From UHGV virus genome UHGV-1994978: a DNA stretch of 12,529 nucleotides; one strand, 5' to 3'. Origin of the DNA: a virus. The notes below the pieces were generated by a model. It ran no database searches. It was given only the letters and a program-made list of their open reading frames with translations, and was not told the origin of the DNA. Shown in pieces: positions 1,249-12,529 of the stretch. Position 1 is the first letter of the stretch. Each line of letters opens with the position of its first letter. The translations under genes and the position numbers were made by a program.

Positions 1249-1292
1249 AAGTGAGATACCATAAATACTCCTATAACAGATAGGAGAGATTT

Positions 1293-1484: not shown

Positions 1485-1604
1485 CCATATTATGGTGATC
1501 ACTACCTCAACGTGATAATTATAATTCTACATCAAAAAGTAATCACCAACATGGGGATCTTTTTGCGTTGAGAAAAAATGGAAAATGTTAAACAAAGGAA
1601 TGTT

Positions 1605-1757
1605 ATGAAAGAAAAGAAAACTATTAGTGTTGGGGTGAGATTAAGTCCTACACAAGAAGAAATACTAAAATCACTTATAGTGTGTGGTAAGGCTACAACG
1701 ATGAGTTCAGCCATTCAGTATCTGATACAGCAATATGGGATTTTAGATAGTAAGTAA
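1605..1757 (+). CDS. ribbon-helix-helix (Arc/MetJ/CopG-like) DNA-binding protein; alternative in-frame start at 1578
   Basis: AAGGA (1594-1598) six nt before ATG 1605; MKEKKTISVGVRLSPTQEEILKSLIV-CGKATTMS-SAIQYLIQQYG fits a beta-strand / helix / Gly-loop / helix RHH layout. Confidence 0.5.
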   Translation: MKEKKTISVGVRLSPTQEEILKSLIVCGKATTMSSAIQYLIQQYGILDSK

Positions 1758-2403: not shown

Positions 2404-2853
2404 ATGGCAAGAAAAGAAGCAATTCATAATAATCAGAAAGTAAAGGGAGCATTAAAAAATATAACATTACATGCCCTTTCCAAAGAAGCAAAAGATGTAA
2501 TGAGAAATCTAATTCAAGAAAGTGATTTTTTAGGTAAAAACAGAGTACCAGAAGAAGACGTGTATGCCATTGTTCGTAATAGTCCAGAGTTAAGCGAACA
2601 GCTAACATTTGAATATCTAAAGCTATACAGACAAACAAAAGGTATGAACTACCCGGATAGTAAATCAGCACGTGAGAAGTACAAGAGGATCGCTACGCTC
2701 ATTTCACAGGCATTCGAGCAACTACTGAACGATGGTGTACCCCTCAACATGATTGCAAAGTATAAGTCTAAGCAGTTGATGACAGACGAACAGAAAGCCG
2801 CACATCTAGAGATGTTGACCTGCTCCCCGTTGATTAGTACACCCCGATGTTAG
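2404..2853 (+). pseudogene. phage gene interrupted by IS insertion (N-terminal part; native frame ends at the IS junction 2815/2816, the last 12 codons are read from the IS inverted repeat)
   Basis: ORF with AGGGG upstream of ATG 2404; reading frame runs straight into the IS left inverted repeat. Confidence 0.5.
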
Positions 2854-2858
2854 TAATG
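2816..2858. repeat. IS left terminal inverted repeat
   Basis: TGACCTGCTCCCCGTTGATTAG...GTTAGTAA aligns with the reverse complement of the right end. Confidence 0.7.
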
Positions 2859-2886
2859 TCTTCATAAGCCACATGAGGACATCCCC

Positions 2887-3150
2887 ATGAAGAAGCGTTT
2901 TTCCGACGAACAGATCATCAGTATTCTCCGCGAAGCCGAAGCTGGGGTACCCGCCCGTGAACTCTGCCGCAAGCATGCCATTTCCGATGCCACGTTTTAC
3001 ACCTGGCGTAAGAAGTATGGCGGTATGGAGGTGCCTGAAGTTAAGCGCCTGAAGTCGCTTGAGGAAGAGAACACCAGACTCAAGAAGCTGCTTGCCGAAG
3101 CCATGCTGGATAAAGAGGCGCTTCAGGTGGCTCTTGGGCGAAAGTACTGA
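2887..3150 (+). CDS. IS3-family transposase OrfA (helix-turn-helix and leucine-zipper part)
   Basis: [46 protein letters not shown]... is the typical IS3/IS407-group OrfA pattern. Confidence 0.9.
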
Positions 3151-3173
3151 CGACAGACCAGAAGCGGGAAGCC

Positions 3174-4218
<1,045 letters not shown>

Positions 4219-4620: not shown

Positions 4621-7820
<3,200 letters not shown>

Positions 7821-7822
<2 letters not shown>

Positions 7823-7830
7823 TAAATATC
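7821..7830 (+). promoter_or_regulatory. AATAAATATC motif, candidate late promoter element
   Basis: Exact 10-mer 37 nt upstream of ATG 7868; same 10-mer recurs upstream of two other genes. Confidence 0.35.
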
Positions 7831-7867
7831 AAGGGGATAATTTCCCCTATGACTTAAAGGATTTAAT

Positions 7868-8164
7868 ATGGCACAAGGATTACAATGCTGGAATAGTGCA
7901 GGGGTATTAGTAGTAGATCTCGGTGATTATAATATGCGGTATATGGGTACTTACTCAATTACTGCTACTACTGCATCAAGTTATACTGTTACTGTACCCG
8001 GAATGAAAACAACAGGGTGGATAGCCTATTACGCACCATCTACGGATGTTTTTAATAATTGGTCTGTTATTTGTAATAATGGTTCAATGACTATCATTTA
8101 TCTACCAACGGGATCACCGTTTGCTGGTACGTATAGTTTCAACGTATATAAATGGACGGTGTAA
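7868..8164 (+). CDS. hypothetical tail-fibre-associated protein (98 aa)
   Basis: AAGGA upstream of ATG 7868; N-terminus MAQGLQCWNSAGVLVVD shares the NSAG-L-(V/I)D motif with the next gene. Confidence 0.6.
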   Translation: MAQGLQCWNSAGVLVVDLGDYNMRYMGTYSITATTASSYTVTVPGMKTTGWIAYYAPSTDVFNNWSVICNNGSMTIIYLPTGSPFAGTYSFNVYKWTV

Positions 8165-8165
8165 T

Positions 8166-8822
8166 ATGTCAGGGTTTGAAGTTTATAATTCTGCGGGTGC
8201 TCTCACGATTGACAGTACTAACAAGTCAATTCTCACAGGTGCTGTTAAGGCAATGGGTACACTGACTGATCAGGGGTACTACACAGGCTTTACATGTGCT
8301 TTTGGTAATGGTGGTGCTCTTGGCTTCTTGCCACCTGCAACTATCGTGAACAGGAACACTACGCAGTACTGGTTTCAGATACAGAAAGATGGTGGCTGGT
8401 GTTTTCCCGGTGCTGAGTTGTTCCAGCCGGGGATAGGGCGATTCATGACGAGTACGCACACTGCAACGCCTACGTCTGGTTATCTCGATGTGTTTAATGC
8501 TTCCGGTACTTTGATATGGTCTGCTGCATCGGCGGCTACCATGCCCCGTATACAGGGTTTCTTAACCGTACCTGCGGCAACAGATTTGAGTACTGCAATC
8601 ACAGTAACAAGCCCTGTTGCTAATCCCTGGTTTTGCTGGTCACAATGTCCGGGCAACTTAAGTGATGATGGGGAAACAATCGGTTATTCGGGAATAGTTA
8701 TTCGACGTAATAGCAGTACTTCATTCAGCTTGCAGTACGTTTCAAAGAACCAGAAAACATATCGTCAGGCAATGGGTAACAATGGTTTTCAAATTGCTTT
8801 AGCTACTTTCACCGGATATTAA
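8166..8822 (+). CDS. hypothetical tail-fibre-associated protein (218 aa), paralogous N-terminus to the preceding gene; the ORF-track start at 8121 is probably too far upstream
   Basis: ATG 8166 one nt after the previous stop; MSGFEVYNSAGALTIDSTNK; Gly/Ser/Thr-rich, as often seen in fibre or receptor-binding proteins. Confidence 0.6.
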   Translation: MSGFEVYNSAGALTIDSTNKSILTGAVKAMGTLTDQGYYTGFTCAFGNGGALGFLPPATIVNRNTTQYWFQIQKDGGWCFPGAELFQPGIGRFMTSTHTATPTSGYLDVFNASGTLIWSAASAATMPRIQGFLTVPAATDLSTAITVTSPVANPWFCWSQCPGNLSDDGETIGYSGIVIRRNSSTSFSLQYVSKNQKTYRQAMGNNGFQIALATFTGY

Positions 8823-8823
8823 C

Positions 8824-8833
8824 AATAAATATC
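8824..8833 (+). promoter_or_regulatory. AATAAATATC motif, candidate late promoter element
   Basis: Exact 10-mer 29 nt upstream of ATG 8863. Confidence 0.35.
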
Positions 8834-8862
8834 ATTATAAGAATAATAATAAGCGAGACAAT

Positions 8863-9129
8863 ATGGACATTGGTACAATCTTAGCTCTTATTATTTCTGG
8901 TTGTGTACTTCTGTACACTGTATTCCGCGACAATACAAAAGATACTGATGGACTACTTACACGTGTTTCAGAACTGGAAACTAAACAAGCAGTACAGGAA
9001 AGTAGTATGGTGCGTATTGAAGCTGATCAGAATAAGATGCGTGATGCTTTAACTAAACTTGAAAACCAGATTCATGATCTGGATGTGAAAATTGAAAAAA
9101 TCATTACCATTCTTGAACAGAAACAATAA
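8863..9129 (+). CDS. small membrane-anchored protein with C-terminal coiled coil (88 aa)
   Basis: N-terminal hydrophobic segment ILALIISGCVLLYTVF followed by a heptad-like helical region; function not assignable from sequence. Confidence 0.55.
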   Translation: MDIGTILALIISGCVLLYTVFRDNTKDTDGLLTRVSELETKQAVQESSMVRIEADQNKMRDALTKLENQIHDLDVKIEKIITILEQKQ

Positions 9130-9135
9130 GAAGAA

Positions 9136-9167
9136 AGGCGATAGTACATAATGCTATCGCCTTTTTG
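9136..9167. terminator. bidirectional rho-independent terminator between convergent genes
   Basis: AGGCGATAG / CTATCGCCT stem flanked by an A-tract upstream and TTTTT downstream. Confidence 0.6.
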
Positions 9168-9617
9168 TTATTTGTTGGTTAGTACGGCAATCATTGCATC
9201 AACACGATTAGGTGTTTGTTTATACCATAATGAATCTTTAGCCTGTCTGATGGCTTCCGGGTAATCTTTTGTTTTAAGGGCTACTAACATCTTTTTGAAT
9301 TTCTGTACCCCGCCTAAACCTAACTGGAACATCATTATCACAAGAAAATCTTTCCAGTCGTCAGGTAGCCAGATGTTGAGCGTTTCAACATTATGTACTG
9401 CAATTAGTATATCCTGGTCCAGTAGTCTATCTGCTTGCTCAATAGTAATACCATCTGGATACTTGTCACCAACATGTAGTAAATGACCGTAGCCAATGGT
9501 TTCAAATCCTAGTGAATCTTTGTATGTCCAAAATTTGTTATCGTGAAAGTACTTCAATTTTGTTTGATAAGCGATAGTACCTTCATATTCTTTTAATCTG
9601 TCTTTTAGTTTACTCAT
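9168..9617 (-). CDS. T4-type lysozyme (glycoside hydrolase family 24), putative endolysin
   Basis: YKDSLGFETIGYGHLL aligns with T4 lysozyme YKDTEGYYTIGIGHLL; MMFQLGLGGVQKF and WYKQTPNR match T4 MVFQMGETGVAGF and WYNQTPNR; Glu/Asp/Thr catalytic positions appear conserved. Confidence 0.85.
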   Translation of the reverse strand: MSKLKDRLKEYEGTIAYQTKLKYFHDNKFWTYKDSLGFETIGYGHLLHVGDKYPDGITIEQADRLLDQDILIAVHNVETLNIWLPDDWKDFLVIMMFQLGLGGVQKFKKMLVALKTKDYPEAIRQAKDSLWYKQTPNRVDAMIAVLTNK

Positions 9618-9647
9618 TAATAAATACCTATAATAAATCTATATAGG

Positions 9648-9657
9648 GATATTTATT
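9648..9657 (-). promoter_or_regulatory. AATAAATATC motif (minus strand), candidate late promoter element for the lysozyme gene
   Basis: Reverse complement of GATATTTATT; 30 nt upstream of the lysozyme start codon. Confidence 0.35.
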
Positions 9658-9681
9658 GTGAGAGTTAATAAAGCATGGGAG

Positions 9682-10107
9682 ATGTTCGATACTGATATGT
9701 GGGATATGTCAGAAGTAACAGATGGGAACTACGTTTCGTTTATCTACATTATTCAGTTTCCAGAGACTGGCGAGTACTATTTCGGTAAGAAGCAAATCTA
9801 TAAAAAAGTACGCGACATAAAGAATTTAAAGGCTACTTCAATTGAATCGAACTGGCCTGATTATACCGGTAGTAGTAAGTGCGTTAATGAAATGATTGAT
9901 GCCGGAATGCCATACACTAAAAAGATTTTGTACTGTGTTAAATCTGACGCAGAGGCAACGATTTTAGAAACAGCATTGATTAGCTACATTGGTTTACATC
10001 CCGACTGCTTAAATAAAGCAATTATGTGTAAAGCACGATTGCCAAAGAATCGTTTAGATTTATTTAAAGTACTGCAAGATCTAATTGATATGTTGGGTGT
10101 GAGGTAA
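9682..10107 (+). CDS. hypothetical protein, possibly a small GIY-YIG-like nuclease domain; track start 9658 (GTG) is the alternative
   Basis: GGGAG four nt before ATG 9682; SFIYIIQFPETGEYYFGKK loosely fits GIY...YIG spacing, with later Arg and Glu (ILETAL) candidates; weak assignment. Confidence 0.5.
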   Translation: MFDTDMWDMSEVTDGNYVSFIYIIQFPETGEYYFGKKQIYKKVRDIKNLKATSIESNWPDYTGSSKCVNEMIDAGMPYTKKILYCVKSDAEATILETALISYIGLHPDCLNKAIMCKARLPKNRLDLFKVLQDLIDMLGVR

Positions 10108-10111
10108 ATAC

Positions 10112-10672
10112 ATGACAAGAATAACGGGTATAGATAATGTCACGAACTATATAAAAACAACAGGAACGAAGTTAGGTAAACAGTTCCAAGATGAAATTAT
10201 TAAGCGTTCAAGAGTATTATCTATGAAAGTACAGGCAGATATGAACAATGCCGTAGACAAAGGTGCAGTACCTTTCACTCAACGATCAATTCTATTCTTT
10301 TATAAAAAACGGGGTAGTGGGGTTACAGCTACAATCATGGTCAAAGATGTTCAGGCACAGTACTTATATGGTGTACTGGTTGAACAAAAGGCCATTGATA
10401 AATTTGTGCCTACTTCAAAAGCCCGCTTAACAAAGCAGGGTAATATTAGTGGACTAAAGAAGAATTTATCAAGTGGACGATACAAGATTGTCAAAGGTAA
10501 AAACGGAAAAGAACGATTAATAGATACTACTCAAAAGAAAAAACAAAAGCGTGTAATCGGTCTACGGGAACGTAAACGCCGTAAAATAATTTATGATTTC
10601 TATCAGGAAGTGAATGATGGTGTGATGTTAGTAATGAGTGGTATACAGGGAACATTCAAGGTAACAAGATGA
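10112..10672 (+). CDS. hypothetical protein with strongly basic C-terminal region (186 aa)
   Basis: ORF starts 5 nt after the previous stop; KKKQKRVIGLRERKRRK basic cluster; no family recognised. Confidence 0.6.
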   Translation: MTRITGIDNVTNYIKTTGTKLGKQFQDEIIKRSRVLSMKVQADMNNAVDKGAVPFTQRSILFFYKKRGSGVTATIMVKDVQAQYLYGVLVEQKAIDKFVPTSKARLTKQGNISGLKKNLSSGRYKIVKGKNGKERLIDTTQKKKQKRVIGLRERKRRKIIYDFYQEVNDGVMLVMSGIQGTFKVTR

Positions 10673-10980
10673 ATTTTGATGAACATTATGGTGAACTAAC
10701 CAGTGAGATTAAACTCGATGGTAATACACCAGAGGCTAATAGTATGCCAATTCATAAATGCTTTCTTGGTAATAAGTTCAAGAAGGTACTAAAGAGTAAA
10801 CAGATTAATATCGAACATTTTATGAATGTTTGCTATGAGAAAAAACAAGATATAACGGACGGTTCAGTACTCACATGGTCACTACAAGGTGTCCAGATGG
10901 ATGTGTATGTAATCGAACACAAAAAACTATTCGTTAAGGGAAAACACTTTTGGGTGTATTGCGTGGGGATCATTGAATGA
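10669..10980 (+). CDS. hypothetical protein (103 aa)
   Basis: ATGA start/stop overlap with the upstream gene suggests translational coupling. Confidence 0.55.
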   Translation: MNFDEHYGELTSEIKLDGNTPEANSMPIHKCFLGNKFKKVLKSKQINIEHFMNVCYEKKQDITDGSVLTWSLQGVQMDVYVIEHKKLFVKGKHFWVYCVGIIE

Positions 10981-11270
10981 TTGGTGTAATAATTGATTTA
11001 ATTAAAACTGGAATGGACTTTTTCATCAAGAAGAAAACTGTAGAACAGGAAGTTCAAAAAAATAATGCTGAAGGGCAGATAGAAACGAACAAAGAAGAGA
11101 TTGAAAAGGTGACATTCCATTGGCGTAATGCTCTAGGATGTGTGCTCACCTTAATCATTCTATATAACTGGATCATAGTACCAGTACTTGATGCTTTTGG
11201 TATTGTGGTTATCCAAGTGCCGTTAGGTCAACTACTGCAAGTACTATTGATTATGGTTGGTGGAAGCTGA
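10977..11270 (+). CDS. hypothetical membrane protein with two C-terminal transmembrane segments (97 aa)
   Basis: ATGA overlap with the upstream gene; hydrophobic stretches LGCVLTLIILYNWIIVPVL and GIVVIQVPLGQLLQVLLIMVGG; strong terminator follows. Confidence 0.55.
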   Translation: MIGVIIDLIKTGMDFFIKKKTVEQEVQKNNAEGQIETNKEEIEKVTFHWRNALGCVLTLIILYNWIIVPVLDAFGIVVIQVPLGQLLQVLLIMVGGS

Positions 11271-11272
11271 GT

Positions 11273-11298
11273 AAGCCCCTTAAGGGGCTTTTCTTTTA
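11273..11298. terminator. rho-independent terminator between convergent transcription units
   Basis: AAGCCCCT / AGGGGCTT palindrome then TTCTTTTATT, directly after stop of 10977..11270. Confidence 0.7.

Positions 11299-11524: not shown

Positions 11525-12529
<1,005 letters not shown>

What the first reader, a model, noticed from the sequence alone, without database searches (positions are those of the whole stretch)
7821..9657. Same 10-mer AATAAATATC upstream of three late-type genes, candidate late promoter
The exact 10-mer lies 29-37 nt upstream of the start codons of 7868..8164, 8863..9129 and, on the minus strand, the lysozyme gene. By composition I would expect well under one copy in the window. 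It contains ATAAATA, close to the T4-type late promoter box TATAAATA, which could mean a phage-encoded late sigma factor, distinct from the sigma70-like early promoters at 718-746 and 1455-1484.
Basis: partly seen in the sequence, partly recalled or inferred. Interest (0 to 1): 0.6.

Follow-up and report, generated by a model that had tools for sequence, protein, structure and literature searches.

The report
T4-style late promoter boxes in prophage
The repeated 10-mer is real and is one local spelling of a short box, NATAAATA, that sits in front of nearly every virion and lysis operon in an uncultured family of enterobacterial prophages, looks and is laid out like the late promoters of phage T4, yet the family has no recognisable copy of the T4 protein that reads such promoters.

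Summary
Observation confirmed: AATAAATATC occurs exactly three times (7821+, 8824+, 9657-9648 minus), expected 0.12, and lies 37, 29 and 30 nt before three start codons. The functional unit is shorter, NATAAATA. The window holds more copies: 9619-9628(+) facing the GIY-YIG operon, and 1260-1267(+).

The window is the IS-deleted remnant of a low-GC siphovirus-type prophage next to mipA in Escherichia. The family is spread across Enterobacteriaceae and has no cultured relative.

- In 11 reconstructed relatives ATAAATA is the most enriched 7-mer upstream of gene starts (91/163).
- The same holds in 8 further species (25/35) and in T4 itself (14/29), but not in 57 lambdoid loci (10/162).
- It is invariant at nine orthologous positions while the flanks diverge.
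- It has no -35 element and a purine peak at T4's +1 position.
- It forms back-to-back pairs between divergent genes, as in T4.

A T4-type, -10-only late promoter is therefore well supported. What reads the box is open: an unrecognised element protein, sigma70 plus an activator, or a superinfecting gp55-encoding phage.

The parts
7821..7830 (+). Box a: AATAAATATC (core ATAAATA 7822-7828). It overlaps the stop codon of the tail-tip J gene and lies 37 nt before the ATG of the 98-aa gene (7868). By T4 spacing the predicted start is about G7834.
   Evidence: TAATAAATA is kept after the J stop codon in every relative that has an intergenic gap there.
7832..7848 (+). Hairpin AGGGGAtaattTCCCCT just after box a. 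The predicted start falls inside its 5' arm. It is either a 5'-terminal stabilising stem or a terminator that box-initiated transcripts escape (inferred).
   Evidence: stem.: -11.6 kcal/mol, z -3.8. Relatives keep a hairpin here with different stem sequences.
8824..8833 (+). Box b: AATAAATATC, 1 nt after the stop of the 218-aa DUF8377 gene and 29 nt before the ATG of the 88-aa membrane/coiled-coil gene (8863). Predicted start about A8837.
   Evidence: Among the IMG/VR relatives that have a g88 homologue at this junction, the box is present in 9 loci and absent in 11; it is the exact T4 spelling TATAAATA in L007, L009, L013, L014 and L017. In the species-representative loci it is TATAAATA in L191 and L195. 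No hairpin here.
9648..9657 (-). Box c(-): AATAAATATC on the minus strand, 30 nt before the lysozyme ATG (9617). Predicted start about A9644. Its reverse complement supplies the spacer between the Shine-Dalgarno sequence (SD) and the start codon of the opposite gene.
   Evidence: Exact in 7 of 11 reconstructed relatives and one mismatch in others. Where lysozyme is flipped to the + strand (L196, L010) it is preceded by terminator, then (A/C)TAAATA, then SD-ATG.
9619..9628 (+). Box c(+): AATAAATACC, the mirror partner, 31 nt before the GTG (9658) of the GIY-YIG / neck-protein / holin-like operon. Predicted start about A9632.
   Evidence: The inverted pair AAATACC...GGTATTT is kept across the family. 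T4 has the same layout at genes 4/53, inh/segE and 26/51.
1260..1286 (+). CATAAATA (1260-1267) plus hairpin CTCCTATaacagATAGGAG (1268-1286), 25 nt before the ATG of a 57-aa membrane protein in the left arm.
   Evidence: The orthologous gene in G9 also has the box.
11783..11790 (+). One-mismatch variant CTAAATAC, 29 nt before the methyltransferase ATG (11819). It is one arm of an inverted repeat AAATACCC...GGGTATTT in a divergent gap. Weaker call.
   Evidence: CTAAATA and TAAATAC are themselves enriched upstream of starts.
7868..8822 (+). Genes downstream of box a: a 98-aa protein (7868-8164) and a 218-aa DUF8377 protein (8166-8822), tail-module accessory proteins of unknown function.
   Evidence: Syntenic in all relatives.
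8863..9166 (+). 88-aa gene with an N-terminal membrane helix and a coiled coil (8863-9129), followed by a bidirectional terminator (9132-9166).
9168..9617 (-). T4-type lysozyme (149 aa, Phage_lysozyme), the only minus-strand gene in this stretch.
9658..11290 (+). Operon downstream of box c(+): SegE-like GIY-YIG nuclease (9658-10107), 186-aa HK97-gp10-like neck protein (10112-10672), 103-aa beta-barrel neck-like protein (10669-10980), 97-aa holin-like protein (10977-11270) and a terminator (11273-11290).

Best explanation
The 10-mer is the local spelling of an 8-bp box, NATAAATA, that acts as a -10-only promoter for the late (virion and lysis) transcription units of this prophage family. It works the way T4 late promoters work. 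RNA polymerase carrying a specificity factor other than plain sigma70 recognises the box. It melts the AT-rich segment just downstream and starts at a purine about 6 nt after the last A. That gives leaders of 26-34 nt before the 98-aa gene, the 88-aa gene, the lysozyme gene and the GIY-YIG operon. In the 40-nt gap between lysozyme and the GIY-YIG gene, two boxes sit back to back, one per strand. Each also serves, read backwards, as the spacer between the opposite gene's Shine-Dalgarno sequence and its start codon. At some sites the start falls at or inside a GC hairpin, which would either cap the 5' end of the mRNA or let new transcripts escape a terminator that stops upstream ones. Shown: the motif, its placement, its conservation and its match to T4 architecture. 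Inferred: promoter activity, the start sites and the role of the hairpins. Unknown: the factor that reads the box.
For: (1) Non-random in the window: 3 exact copies against 0.12 expected. (2) Unbiased k-mer test on 11 reconstructed family genomes: ATAAATA is the top 7-mer 12-70 nt upstream of, and co-oriented with, SD+ATG starts. It scores 91 of 163 against a 3.5% background, while composition-matched permutations score 2-31%. (3) Independent replication in 8 species-representative genomes from Scandinavium to Serratia: 25 of 35, again the top 7-mer. (4) Controls: 57 lambdoid loci show no enrichment (10 of 162 against a 5% background); the T4 late region gives the same top 7-mer by the same method (14 of 29). 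(5) The core is invariant at orthologous positions while the flanks diverge: before the 185-aa tail gene 11/11, before the major tail gene 10/11 plus one more in G13 where the ORF caller picked a different start, after the major tail gene likewise 10/11 plus one in G25, before the fibre gene 9/11 (there it lies inside the upstream ORF with synonymous positions frozen), before the 88-aa gene 7/11, lysozyme 7/11, terS 6/11. (6) No -35 conservation and G excluded next to the box. (7) The purine fraction peaks at 0.87 exactly 6 nt after the box, which is T4's +1. T4 analysed the same way gives 0.83 at the same index. (8) The same back-to-back divergent arrangement occurs in T4 at genes 4/53, inh/segE and 26/51. 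(9) Where the lysozyme gene has been inverted (L196, L010), the order is terminator, box, SD-ATG. (10) AATAAATA is the commonest natural variant of the T4 box, 9 of 50 sites (PMC2988020). (11) Canonical sigma70 promoters exist elsewhere in the same element (718-746, 1455-1484), so the box is a second promoter class.
Against: No transcript 5' ends or expression data were available, so every start site is a prediction. No gp55, gp33 or other sigma-like protein was found in the family, so the machinery that defines T4 late promoters is missing or unrecognisable. The first box position is relaxed here (A 48%, T 22%, C 18%, G 12%), whereas in T4 it is T or A. The enrichment p-values are inflated by shared ancestry among the genomes. 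At three of the nine positions the box abuts a GC hairpin, so a role in termination or RNA stability cannot be separated from promoter function there. At site b (+ strand, 8819-8847) and 270 nt upstream of the lysozyme gene on its own strand (minus strand, 9887-9860, inside the GIY-YIG gene), the window also has 10/12 sigma70-like matches. The second of these recurs in only 2 of 11 relatives.
Confidence: 0.65

Rival explanations
1. The boxes are weak sigma70 promoters: a -10-like AATAAA/TATAAA hexamer with no -35, made usable by an activator encoded in the element. Candidates are the conserved ribbon-helix-helix protein (window 1578-1757) and the all-alpha 150-190 aa family that the IS has cut in this window (2404-2853). 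This is how P2 Ogr, Mu C or RinA-type late activators work.
For: TATAAA matches 5 of 6 positions of the sigma70 -10 hexamer. Temperate phages usually use sigma70 plus an activator. The RHH gene is present in every genome that reaches the left end. A second uncharacterised all-alpha family occupies the same left-arm slot in many members. No alternative sigma was found.
Against: The box lacks the near-invariant T at the last -10 position, and the first position is mostly not T. No conserved upstream activator site or -35 is visible. The all-alpha family is absent from about half of the reconstructed left arms. Nine separate promoters across 25 kb is unlike the single activated late promoter typical of temperate phages. 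The RHH fold is classically a repressor fold (my own knowledge).
Confidence: 0.15
2. The elements carry no late specificity factor of their own. The boxes are read by the gp55-type sigma of a superinfecting virulent phage, either a T4-like phage or a jumbo phage of the CBB/GAP32 type. Virion and lysis genes are then switched on only during such an infection, which would serve satellite-like mobilisation or abortive lysis.
For: The box is the gp55 recognition sequence. Jumbo enterobacterial phages use ATAAATA together with a gp55-like sigma (PMC5259590). The conserved core, terS through the holin-like gene, contains no identifiable regulator. The variable left arm has no recognisable replication, repressor or sigma genes and instead carries cargo such as Hcp, Tlde1, DUF3800 and Mrr-like proteins. 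The GIY-YIG gene's nearest cultured homologues are Seg-type endonucleases of T4-like phages. The lysozyme shares 73-75% nucleotide identity in patches with jumbo-phage tail lysozymes. The element is 36-42% GC in a host of about 50% GC.
Against: This is purely circumstantial, and absence of annotation is not absence of function. T4 itself degrades cytosine-containing host DNA and blocks its transcription through Alc (my own knowledge), so T4 proper is an unlikely helper. The element encodes a full virion, terminase, recombinase and lysis set, as an autonomous temperate phage would. Some members carry large helicase/primase-sized genes.
Confidence: 0.13
3. The motif acts at the RNA or terminator level. 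It could be the A-rich 5' flank of bidirectional terminators, an RNase processing or stability signal, or an AU-rich translation enhancer within long polycistronic late transcripts.
For: At site a and on both sides of the major tail gene, the box directly abuts a stable GC hairpin. After the major tail gene that hairpin is followed by a U-tract. Read on the opposite strand, hairpin plus TATTTAT scores as terminator-like.
Against: Six of the nine conserved positions have no hairpin; mean fold z-scores are +0.1, +0.8 and -1.1 at the fibre, 88-aa and 185-aa gene sites. An A-tract need not be an invariant heptamer. The lone minus-strand lysozyme gene and the genes that follow strong terminators need a promoter exactly where the box lies. 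The distance to the start codon ranges from 11 to 57 nt, which is unlike a translational element. No Rfam family matches.
Confidence: 0.05
4. It is a by-product of composition: AT-rich intergenic DNA, tandem TAA stop codons, and the reverse complement of a favoured Shine-Dalgarno-to-start spacer (GGTATTTATnATG).
For: The 7-mer count in the whole window is not above expectation. Box a overlaps TAA TAA. Both boxes at site c mirror the opposite gene's translation-start region, and GGGTATTTATCATG occurs at 2392-2406.
Against: Composition-matched permutations are not enriched. AT-poor and AT-rich controls behave differently. The core is invariant at orthologous sites despite divergent flanks, and inside a coding region at the fibre site.
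Confidence: 0.02

Closest known systems
Bacteriophage T4 late promoters (TATAAATA, read by gp55 with gp33 and the gp45 clamp)
   Same: An 8-bp box with the same core. AATAAATA is the commonest T4 variant. No -35 element. An AT-rich stretch followed by a purine 6 nt after the box. Short leaders. Many promoters scattered through the virion genes on either strand. Back-to-back pairs in divergent gaps, including one in front of a Seg-type GIY-YIG gene.
   Different: The carrier is an integrated, siphovirus-type element with a lambda-like terminase and portal and a serine recombinase, not a T4-like myovirus. No gp55, gp33 or gp45 is detectable. The first box position is relaxed to any base.
NATAAATA / ATAAATA late motifs of T4-like cyanophages (S-PM2) and of jumbo enterobacterial phages CBB and GAP32
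   Same: The same relaxed consensus, placed before structural genes (PMC2988020; PMC5259590).
   Different: Those genomes encode a gp55 homologue or a gp55-like sigma, and they are virulent phages.
Phage rV5 putative late motif TggTAaAAtA
   Same: A T4-like late-looking motif in a phage with no gp55, gp33 or gp45 homologues (PMC3606486). This is a precedent for the puzzle of a box without its reader.
   Different: A different consensus, a virulent myovirus, only eight copies, and no comparative support reported.
Late-operon activators of temperate phages (RinA/ArpU family; P2 Ogr and P4 delta; Mu C)
   Same: Temperate elements that switch on virion genes through a dedicated factor. P2/P4 shows a satellite and its helper cross-activating each other's late promoters.
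   Different: Those systems use one or a few sigma70 promoters with an upstream activator site. Here there are at least nine -10-only boxes and no identified activator.

Membership tests
T4-type (gp55-dependent) late promoter | An 8-bp TATAAATA box (A tolerated at the first position) about one helical turn upstream of the start | tested here: met
   The window boxes are AATAAATA (x4) and CATAAATA. Exact TATAAATA occurs at orthologous sites in relatives. T4 usage is from PMC2988020. The position relative to the real start is not mapped.
T4-type (gp55-dependent) late promoter | No conserved -35 element | tested here: met
   Position-frequency tables for 77 sites in 23 orthologous groups, running to 20 nt upstream of the box, show only a general T/A bias. 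That range reaches roughly position -32 if the box ends at -6, so it covers only the downstream edge of a standard -35 hexamer.
T4-type (gp55-dependent) late promoter | An AT-rich melted segment after the box and initiation at a purine about 6 nt after its last A | tested here: met
   G is nearly absent in the two positions right after the box. The purine fraction peaks at 0.87 at index 12. T4 analysed identically gives 0.83 at index 12. This is in silico only.
T4-type (gp55-dependent) late promoter | Placed before late (virion, lysis) genes, on either strand, including back-to-back divergent pairs | tested here: met
T4-type (gp55-dependent) late promoter | A gp55 sigma encoded by the same genome | tested here: not met
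   phmmer with T4 gp55 and an HMM of 115 homologues against 27,441 ORF fragments from the family loci fetched up to then (L001-L188): best E 1.6. No sigma domain in the Pfam scans. The 186-aa candidate folds as an HK97-gp10-like neck protein. The left-arm all-alpha family against a gp55 profile gives hhalign probability 0.3%. Sensitivity to very divergent gp55 is limited.
T4-type (gp55-dependent) late promoter | Co-activator gp33 and sliding clamp gp45 in the genome | tested here: inconclusive
   No dedicated gp33 or gp45 profile was run. The Pfam scans of the proteins examined show no clamp domain. The 103-aa candidate is a beta-barrel of the PilZ or phage-neck type, not gp33-like.
T4-type (gp55-dependent) late promoter | Box-dependent initiation by gp55-RNA polymerase | not testable with these tools
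   Needs in vitro transcription or in vivo 5'-end mapping.
Sigma70 promoter | A TATAAT-like -10 with T at its last position, plus TTGACA at -35 or an extended TG | tested here: not met
   The box ends ...AAATA with no T at the -7 equivalent, and there is no -35 or TG conservation. Consensus sigma70 hits in the window are no more frequent than in shuffles, 36 against 39.
Intrinsic terminator | A GC-rich hairpin followed by a U-tract at every copy | tested here: not met
   A hairpin is present at 3 of 9 conserved positions only, and a U-tract is clear only after the major tail gene.

The most novel reading that the evidence does not exclude
This widespread family of low-GC, prophage-like elements in Enterobacteriaceae encodes a complete virion and lysis set but no late-transcription factor of its own. 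Its NATAAATA promoters are wired to the gp55-type sigma of superinfecting virulent phages (T4-like phages with unmodified cytosine, or CBB/GAP32-type jumbo phages). The element would then be a virion-encoding satellite, or an abortive-lysis device, triggered by a lytic phage's late programme.
Probability: 0.12. Interest if true: 0.9.

Novelty: new variant of a known kind. Interest (0 to 1): 0.6.

Why it matters
T4-type late promoters are regarded as a hallmark of T4-related phages and their gp55/gp33/gp45 machinery. Here the same box, with the same architecture, is the dominant regulatory signal of an unrelated family. That family is integrated, siphovirus-type, present in many genera of Enterobacteriaceae, and has no cultured member. 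If the boxes are active promoters, two outcomes are possible. Either a new and unrecognisable specificity factor has converged on the T4 box, or these elements borrow the late sigma of virulent phages. The second would be a new kind of link between prophage-like islands and lytic phages. Both outcomes can be tested with a handful of strains named in this report. In practical terms, the box gives an annotation rule for the late transcription units of this family.

Tried and rejected
- **gp55 in the family.** A single-sequence search and a 115-member HMM found nothing.
- **The left-arm all-alpha family (window 2404-2853).** hhalign against gp55 gave probability 0.3%. PDB sequences, PHROGs and NCBIfam gave nothing useful. 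It remains an unassigned candidate.
- **Pfam on 47 non-redundant left-arm proteins.** No sigma, helix-turn-helix or replication families; only cargo.
- **Consensus RNA structure of the site-a hairpins.** MAFFT could not align the divergent stems, so fold_alignment returned no pairs. I replaced it with per-sequence folds.
- **A sigma70 promoter for lysozyme inside the GIY-YIG gene.** Found in the window, but it recurs in only 2 of 11 relatives.
- **Nucleotide searches of cultured phages.** These found only the IS. Among complete E. coli genomes there is one decayed copy.
- **Terminal repeats in the IMG/VR contigs.** None; they are gene-bounded prophage cut-outs, so there is no evidence of free virions.
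- **Rfam.** Only the IS1222 frameshift element matched.
- **Literature.** Three searches found no description of this family or of T4-type boxes in prophages.
Full report
**1. Observation.**
AATAAATATC occurs exactly three times, at 7821-7830 (+), 8824-8833 (+) and 9648-9657 (-). Dinucleotide-preserving shuffles give 0.12 copies on average, and none of 200 reaches three. Read from the sequence, the copies end 37, 29 and 30 nt before ATG 7868, ATG 8863 and the minus-strand lysozyme ATG 9617. The bare core ATAAATA is not over-represented in the window as a whole (8 found, 5.4 expected). What is unusual is where the copies sit. Four of the eight lie in the short gaps of the late region, and a fifth (1261-1267) lies 25 nt before ATG 1293.

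**2. What the window is.**
- The proteins are a lambda-J-type tail tip, tail accessory proteins, a T4-type lysozyme, a SegE-like GIY-YIG nuclease, a holin-like protein and a DNA methyltransferase.
- Exact-protein look-up places the region in enterobacterial chromosomes next to mipA-yeaE-yeaD-gapA. The flank is 49% GC and its GapA reads, from memory, like E. coli GapA, while the element is 36-42% GC.
- One complete E. coli genome carries a decayed copy. It shows the full layout: serine recombinase, small genes, terminase, and so on through lysis genes, methyltransferase and then mipA.
- In the window, an IS1222-like IS3-family element (2816-4036) without a target-site duplication joins the left arm directly to the middle of the tail module. 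The left arm here holds the recombinase C-terminus, small genes and two good sigma70 promoters. About 20 kb of head and tail genes are therefore missing.
- The window is a prophage remnant. No cultured phage is close: nucleotide search finds only the IS, and the best protein identities are 32-45%.

**3. Family-wide evidence.**
- IMG/VR holds more than 20 syntenic relatives with 58-88% identity on the 218-aa protein. By walking with two more proteins I rebuilt 11 genomes of 23-35 kb.
- An unbiased count of all 7-mers lying 12-70 nt upstream of, and co-oriented with, SD+ATG starts puts ATAAATA first. It scores 91 of 163 occurrences against a 3.5% background. The 20 composition-matched permutations score 2-31%, and the highest of those overlap the motif.
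- The same test on 57 lambdoid or other siphovirus loci shows nothing (10 of 162 at a 5% background).
- On 50 kb of the T4 late region it recovers ATAAATA as the top word (14 of 29).
- On eight further species-representative genomes it again gives ATAAATA first, at 25 of 35. These are Scandinavium, Buttiauxella, Pseudescherichia, Pluralibacter, two Phytobacter, Pseudocitrobacter and Serratia.
- The p-values are inflated by shared ancestry, so the stronger argument is site by site. The heptamer is invariant while the flanks diverge:

| Position | Genomes with the exact core |
|---|---|
| Before the 185-aa tail gene | 11/11 |
| Before the major tail gene | 10/11 (one more in G13, grouped apart because the ORF caller picked a different start) |
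| After the major tail gene | 10/11 (one more in G25, same reason) |
| Before the long fibre gene | 9/11 |
| Before the 88-aa gene (site b) | 7/11 |
| Before lysozyme | 7/11 |
| Before the GIY-YIG gene | 5/11 exact, others one mismatch |
| Before terS | 6/11 |
| After the J gene (site a) | wherever a gap exists |

- At the fibre site the box lies inside the upstream ORF, as the codons ATA-AAT-A, with no synonymous change in any genome.
- The consensus is nATAAATA followed by C, T or A and almost never G. The base before the core is A 48%, T 22%, C 18%, G 12%.

**4. Anatomy.**
- No -35 element is visible in the 20 nt tabulated upstream of the box.
- Weighting each orthologous group equally, the purine fraction peaks at 0.87 with essentially no C exactly 6 nt after the last A of the box.
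- In the window this rule predicts starts at G7834, A8837, A9644 (minus strand) and A9632.
- The lysozyme/GIY-YIG gap is only 40 nt and holds two boxes in inverted orientation (9619-9628 on +, 9657-9648 on -). The inverted pair AAATACC...GGTATTT is kept throughout the family.
- In two relatives the lysozyme gene has been turned to the + strand. There it is preceded by a strong terminator, then (A/C)TAAATA, then SD-ATG. A promoter is needed at exactly that point.
- Hairpins accompany the box at only three positions:
  - Before the major tail gene, the stem begins at the predicted +1 in most genomes (within one base in all nine that have the hairpin). That would give a 5'-terminal stem-loop on the most abundant tail mRNA.
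  - After the major tail gene, the hairpin carries a U-tract and overlaps the box. Transcripts started at the box would lack the 5' arm and escape termination.
  - Site a, the window's 7832-7848 hairpin, is intermediate.
- These hairpin roles are inferences.

**5. Direct comparison with T4.**
T4 late promoters are an 8-bp TATA box about one helical turn upstream of the start. They have no -35, an AT-rich melted segment, and A in place of the first T at 9 of 50 sites (PMC2988020). I analysed T4 75-125 kb the same way. It has 25 [T/A]ATAAATA sites, mostly 14-35 nt before start codons where an SD-ATG follows, and purine peaks at 0.83 at the same index 12. It also has three back-to-back divergent pairs, at genes 4/53, inh/segE and 26/51. 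The inh/segE gap has the same design as the window's lysozyme/GIY-YIG gap, down to a Seg-type GIY-YIG gene on one side. The box therefore works like a T4 late promoter on every criterion that sequence can address.

**6. Who reads it?**
- T4 gp55 by phmmer, and an HMM of 115 gp55 homologues, found nothing in 27,441 stop-to-stop ORFs of the family loci fetched up to then (L001-L188; best E 1.6).
- The genes conserved in all members run only from terS to the holin-like gene. They are structural or lysis genes by annotation or fold.
- The left arm is a mosaic of cargo: Hcp, Tlde1, DUF3800, DUF2971, Mrr-like and HNH endonucleases. It has no recognisable sigma, helix-turn-helix repressor or replication gene.
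- Two left-arm genes are conserved and unassigned. One is a ribbon-helix-helix protein (window 1578-1757), present in every genome that reaches the left end. The other is an all-alpha 150-190 aa family (window 2404-2853, cut by the IS), present in about half. The second shows no relation to gp55 (hhalign 0.3%) or to anything in PDB sequences, PHROGs or NCBIfam.

**7. Rivals.**
- Sigma70 plus an element-encoded activator is the conventional alternative. But the box lacks the T at the last -10 position, no upstream site is conserved, and nine dispersed promoters is atypical for a temperate phage.
- An RNA-level or terminator role fits three positions but not the other six, and it does not fit the terminator-box-gene order.
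- Pure composition is excluded by the permutation and control tests.
- A more unusual reading stays open: the elements rely on the gp55-type sigma of a superinfecting virulent phage. Several facts fit this.
  - Enterobacterial jumbo phages of the CBB/GAP32 type use ATAAATA with a gp55-like sigma (PMC5259590).
  - The nearest cultured homologues of the GIY-YIG gene are in T4-like phages.
  - The lysozyme shares 73-75% nucleotide identity in patches with jumbo-phage tail lysozymes.
  - The GC content is far below the host's.
- All of this is circumstantial. T4 proper is an unlikely helper because it destroys and silences cytosine-containing DNA (my own knowledge).

**8. Verdict.**
The "T4-type late promoter" reading is well supported as a description of how the element works (confidence about 0.65 that these are -10-only late promoters). 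Membership in the gp55-dependent class fails on the one feature that defines the machinery. I rate it a new variant of a known kind, with interest 0.6. It is a clear, family-wide and testable case of the T4 late box outside T4-like phages with no visible reader. Nothing here rests on expression data, and 5'-end mapping would settle the main claim quickly.

Noticed in passing
window 2816-4036: An IS1222-like IS3-family insertion sequence (orfA/orfB with the Rfam IS1222 frameshift element at 3117-3234), 99.6-100% identical to copies in three phage-collection records, two of them E. coli phages. It has no target-site duplication (flanks ...GATGT / GTGGC...). It joins the prophage left arm directly to the middle of a tail gene, which implies an IS-mediated deletion of about 20 kb covering the head and most tail genes.
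   Followed up: partly
window 4702-4723 and about 6362: A run of 22 N lies inside the tail-tip J gene. Relative to the intact copy in L001, one base is missing near 6362, which splits J into two ORFs (4662-6392 and 6650-7822). This is either further decay of the remnant or an assembly error.
   Followed up: partly
window 1578-1757 and 2404-2853; relatives G7, G9, G11, G13, G17, G25, L188: Two conserved but unannotated left-arm genes. One is a 59-aa ribbon-helix-helix protein driven in the window by an extended -10 sigma70 promoter (1455-1484). The other is an all-alpha 150-190 aa family, cut here by the IS. These are the only candidate regulators I could find; their function is unknown.
   Followed up: partly
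left arms of G7-G25 and L188 (about 9 kb between the recombinase and terS): The left arm is a highly mosaic cargo region. It carries a T6SS Hcp, a Tlde1 toxin domain, DUF3800, DUF2971, an Mrr-like nuclease, T5orf172 and several HNH endonucleases. No recognisable replication or repressor genes are present. The layout looks more like a defence/cargo island fused to a virion module than a normal temperate phage early region.
   Followed up: partly
window 9658-10107 and orthologues: A 149-aa SegE-like GIY-YIG nuclease with no DNA-binding domain. It holds the same syntenic slot in every family member but diverges much faster than its neighbours (38-76% identity). Its nearest cultured homologues are Seg-type endonucleases of T4-like phages (31-35%).
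   Followed up: partly
window 10112-10980: Two virion neck-type proteins, one HK97-gp10-like (186 aa) and one small beta-barrel (103 aa). They are encoded not in the head-tail module but between the GIY-YIG gene and the holin-like gene, in the operon divergent from the lysozyme gene.
   Followed up: yes
L005-L008, L011, L016-L018, L024, between the J gene and the 98-aa gene: Many relatives carry an extra small ORF of about 45-60 codons in the site-a gap. In several (for example L007, L008, L011 and L016) its C-terminus echoes the C-terminus of J (...I-x-V/I-Y-D-x-x-x-K-L-R-V/I-x-M-N). In others (L005, L017, L018, L024) I could not see the echo. The window lacks this ORF but keeps the box and the hairpin.
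   Followed up: no
L005 and L006, 10654-10714: In these relatives site b is replaced by a tandem (CAATAA)n repeat and the box is lost.
   Followed up: no
G7 19748, and orthologues in G8, G9, G11, G12, G16, G17, G18 and G25: Before the major tail protein gene, a GGGGTAAA...TTTACCCC hairpin with compensatory changes begins within one base of the start predicted from the box. This suggests a 5'-terminal stabilising stem on the most abundant tail mRNA.
   Followed up: partly
window 11774-11818: A second divergent gap, between the lipoprotein gene (-) and the methyltransferase gene (+), has the same inverted-repeat design (AAATACCC-N-GGGTATTT) but with imperfect boxes: CTAAATAC on + and ATAAAATA on -.
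   Followed up: no
(homologues of the 186-aa and 103-aa proteins): The family occurs in chromosomes of Escherichia, Enterobacter, Citrobacter, Klebsiella, Kosakonia, Cedecea, Pantoea, Phytobacter, Pluralibacter, Serratia, Kluyvera, Scandinavium and Buttiauxella. Members are always annotated 'hypothetical' and none comes from an isolated phage.
   Followed up: no
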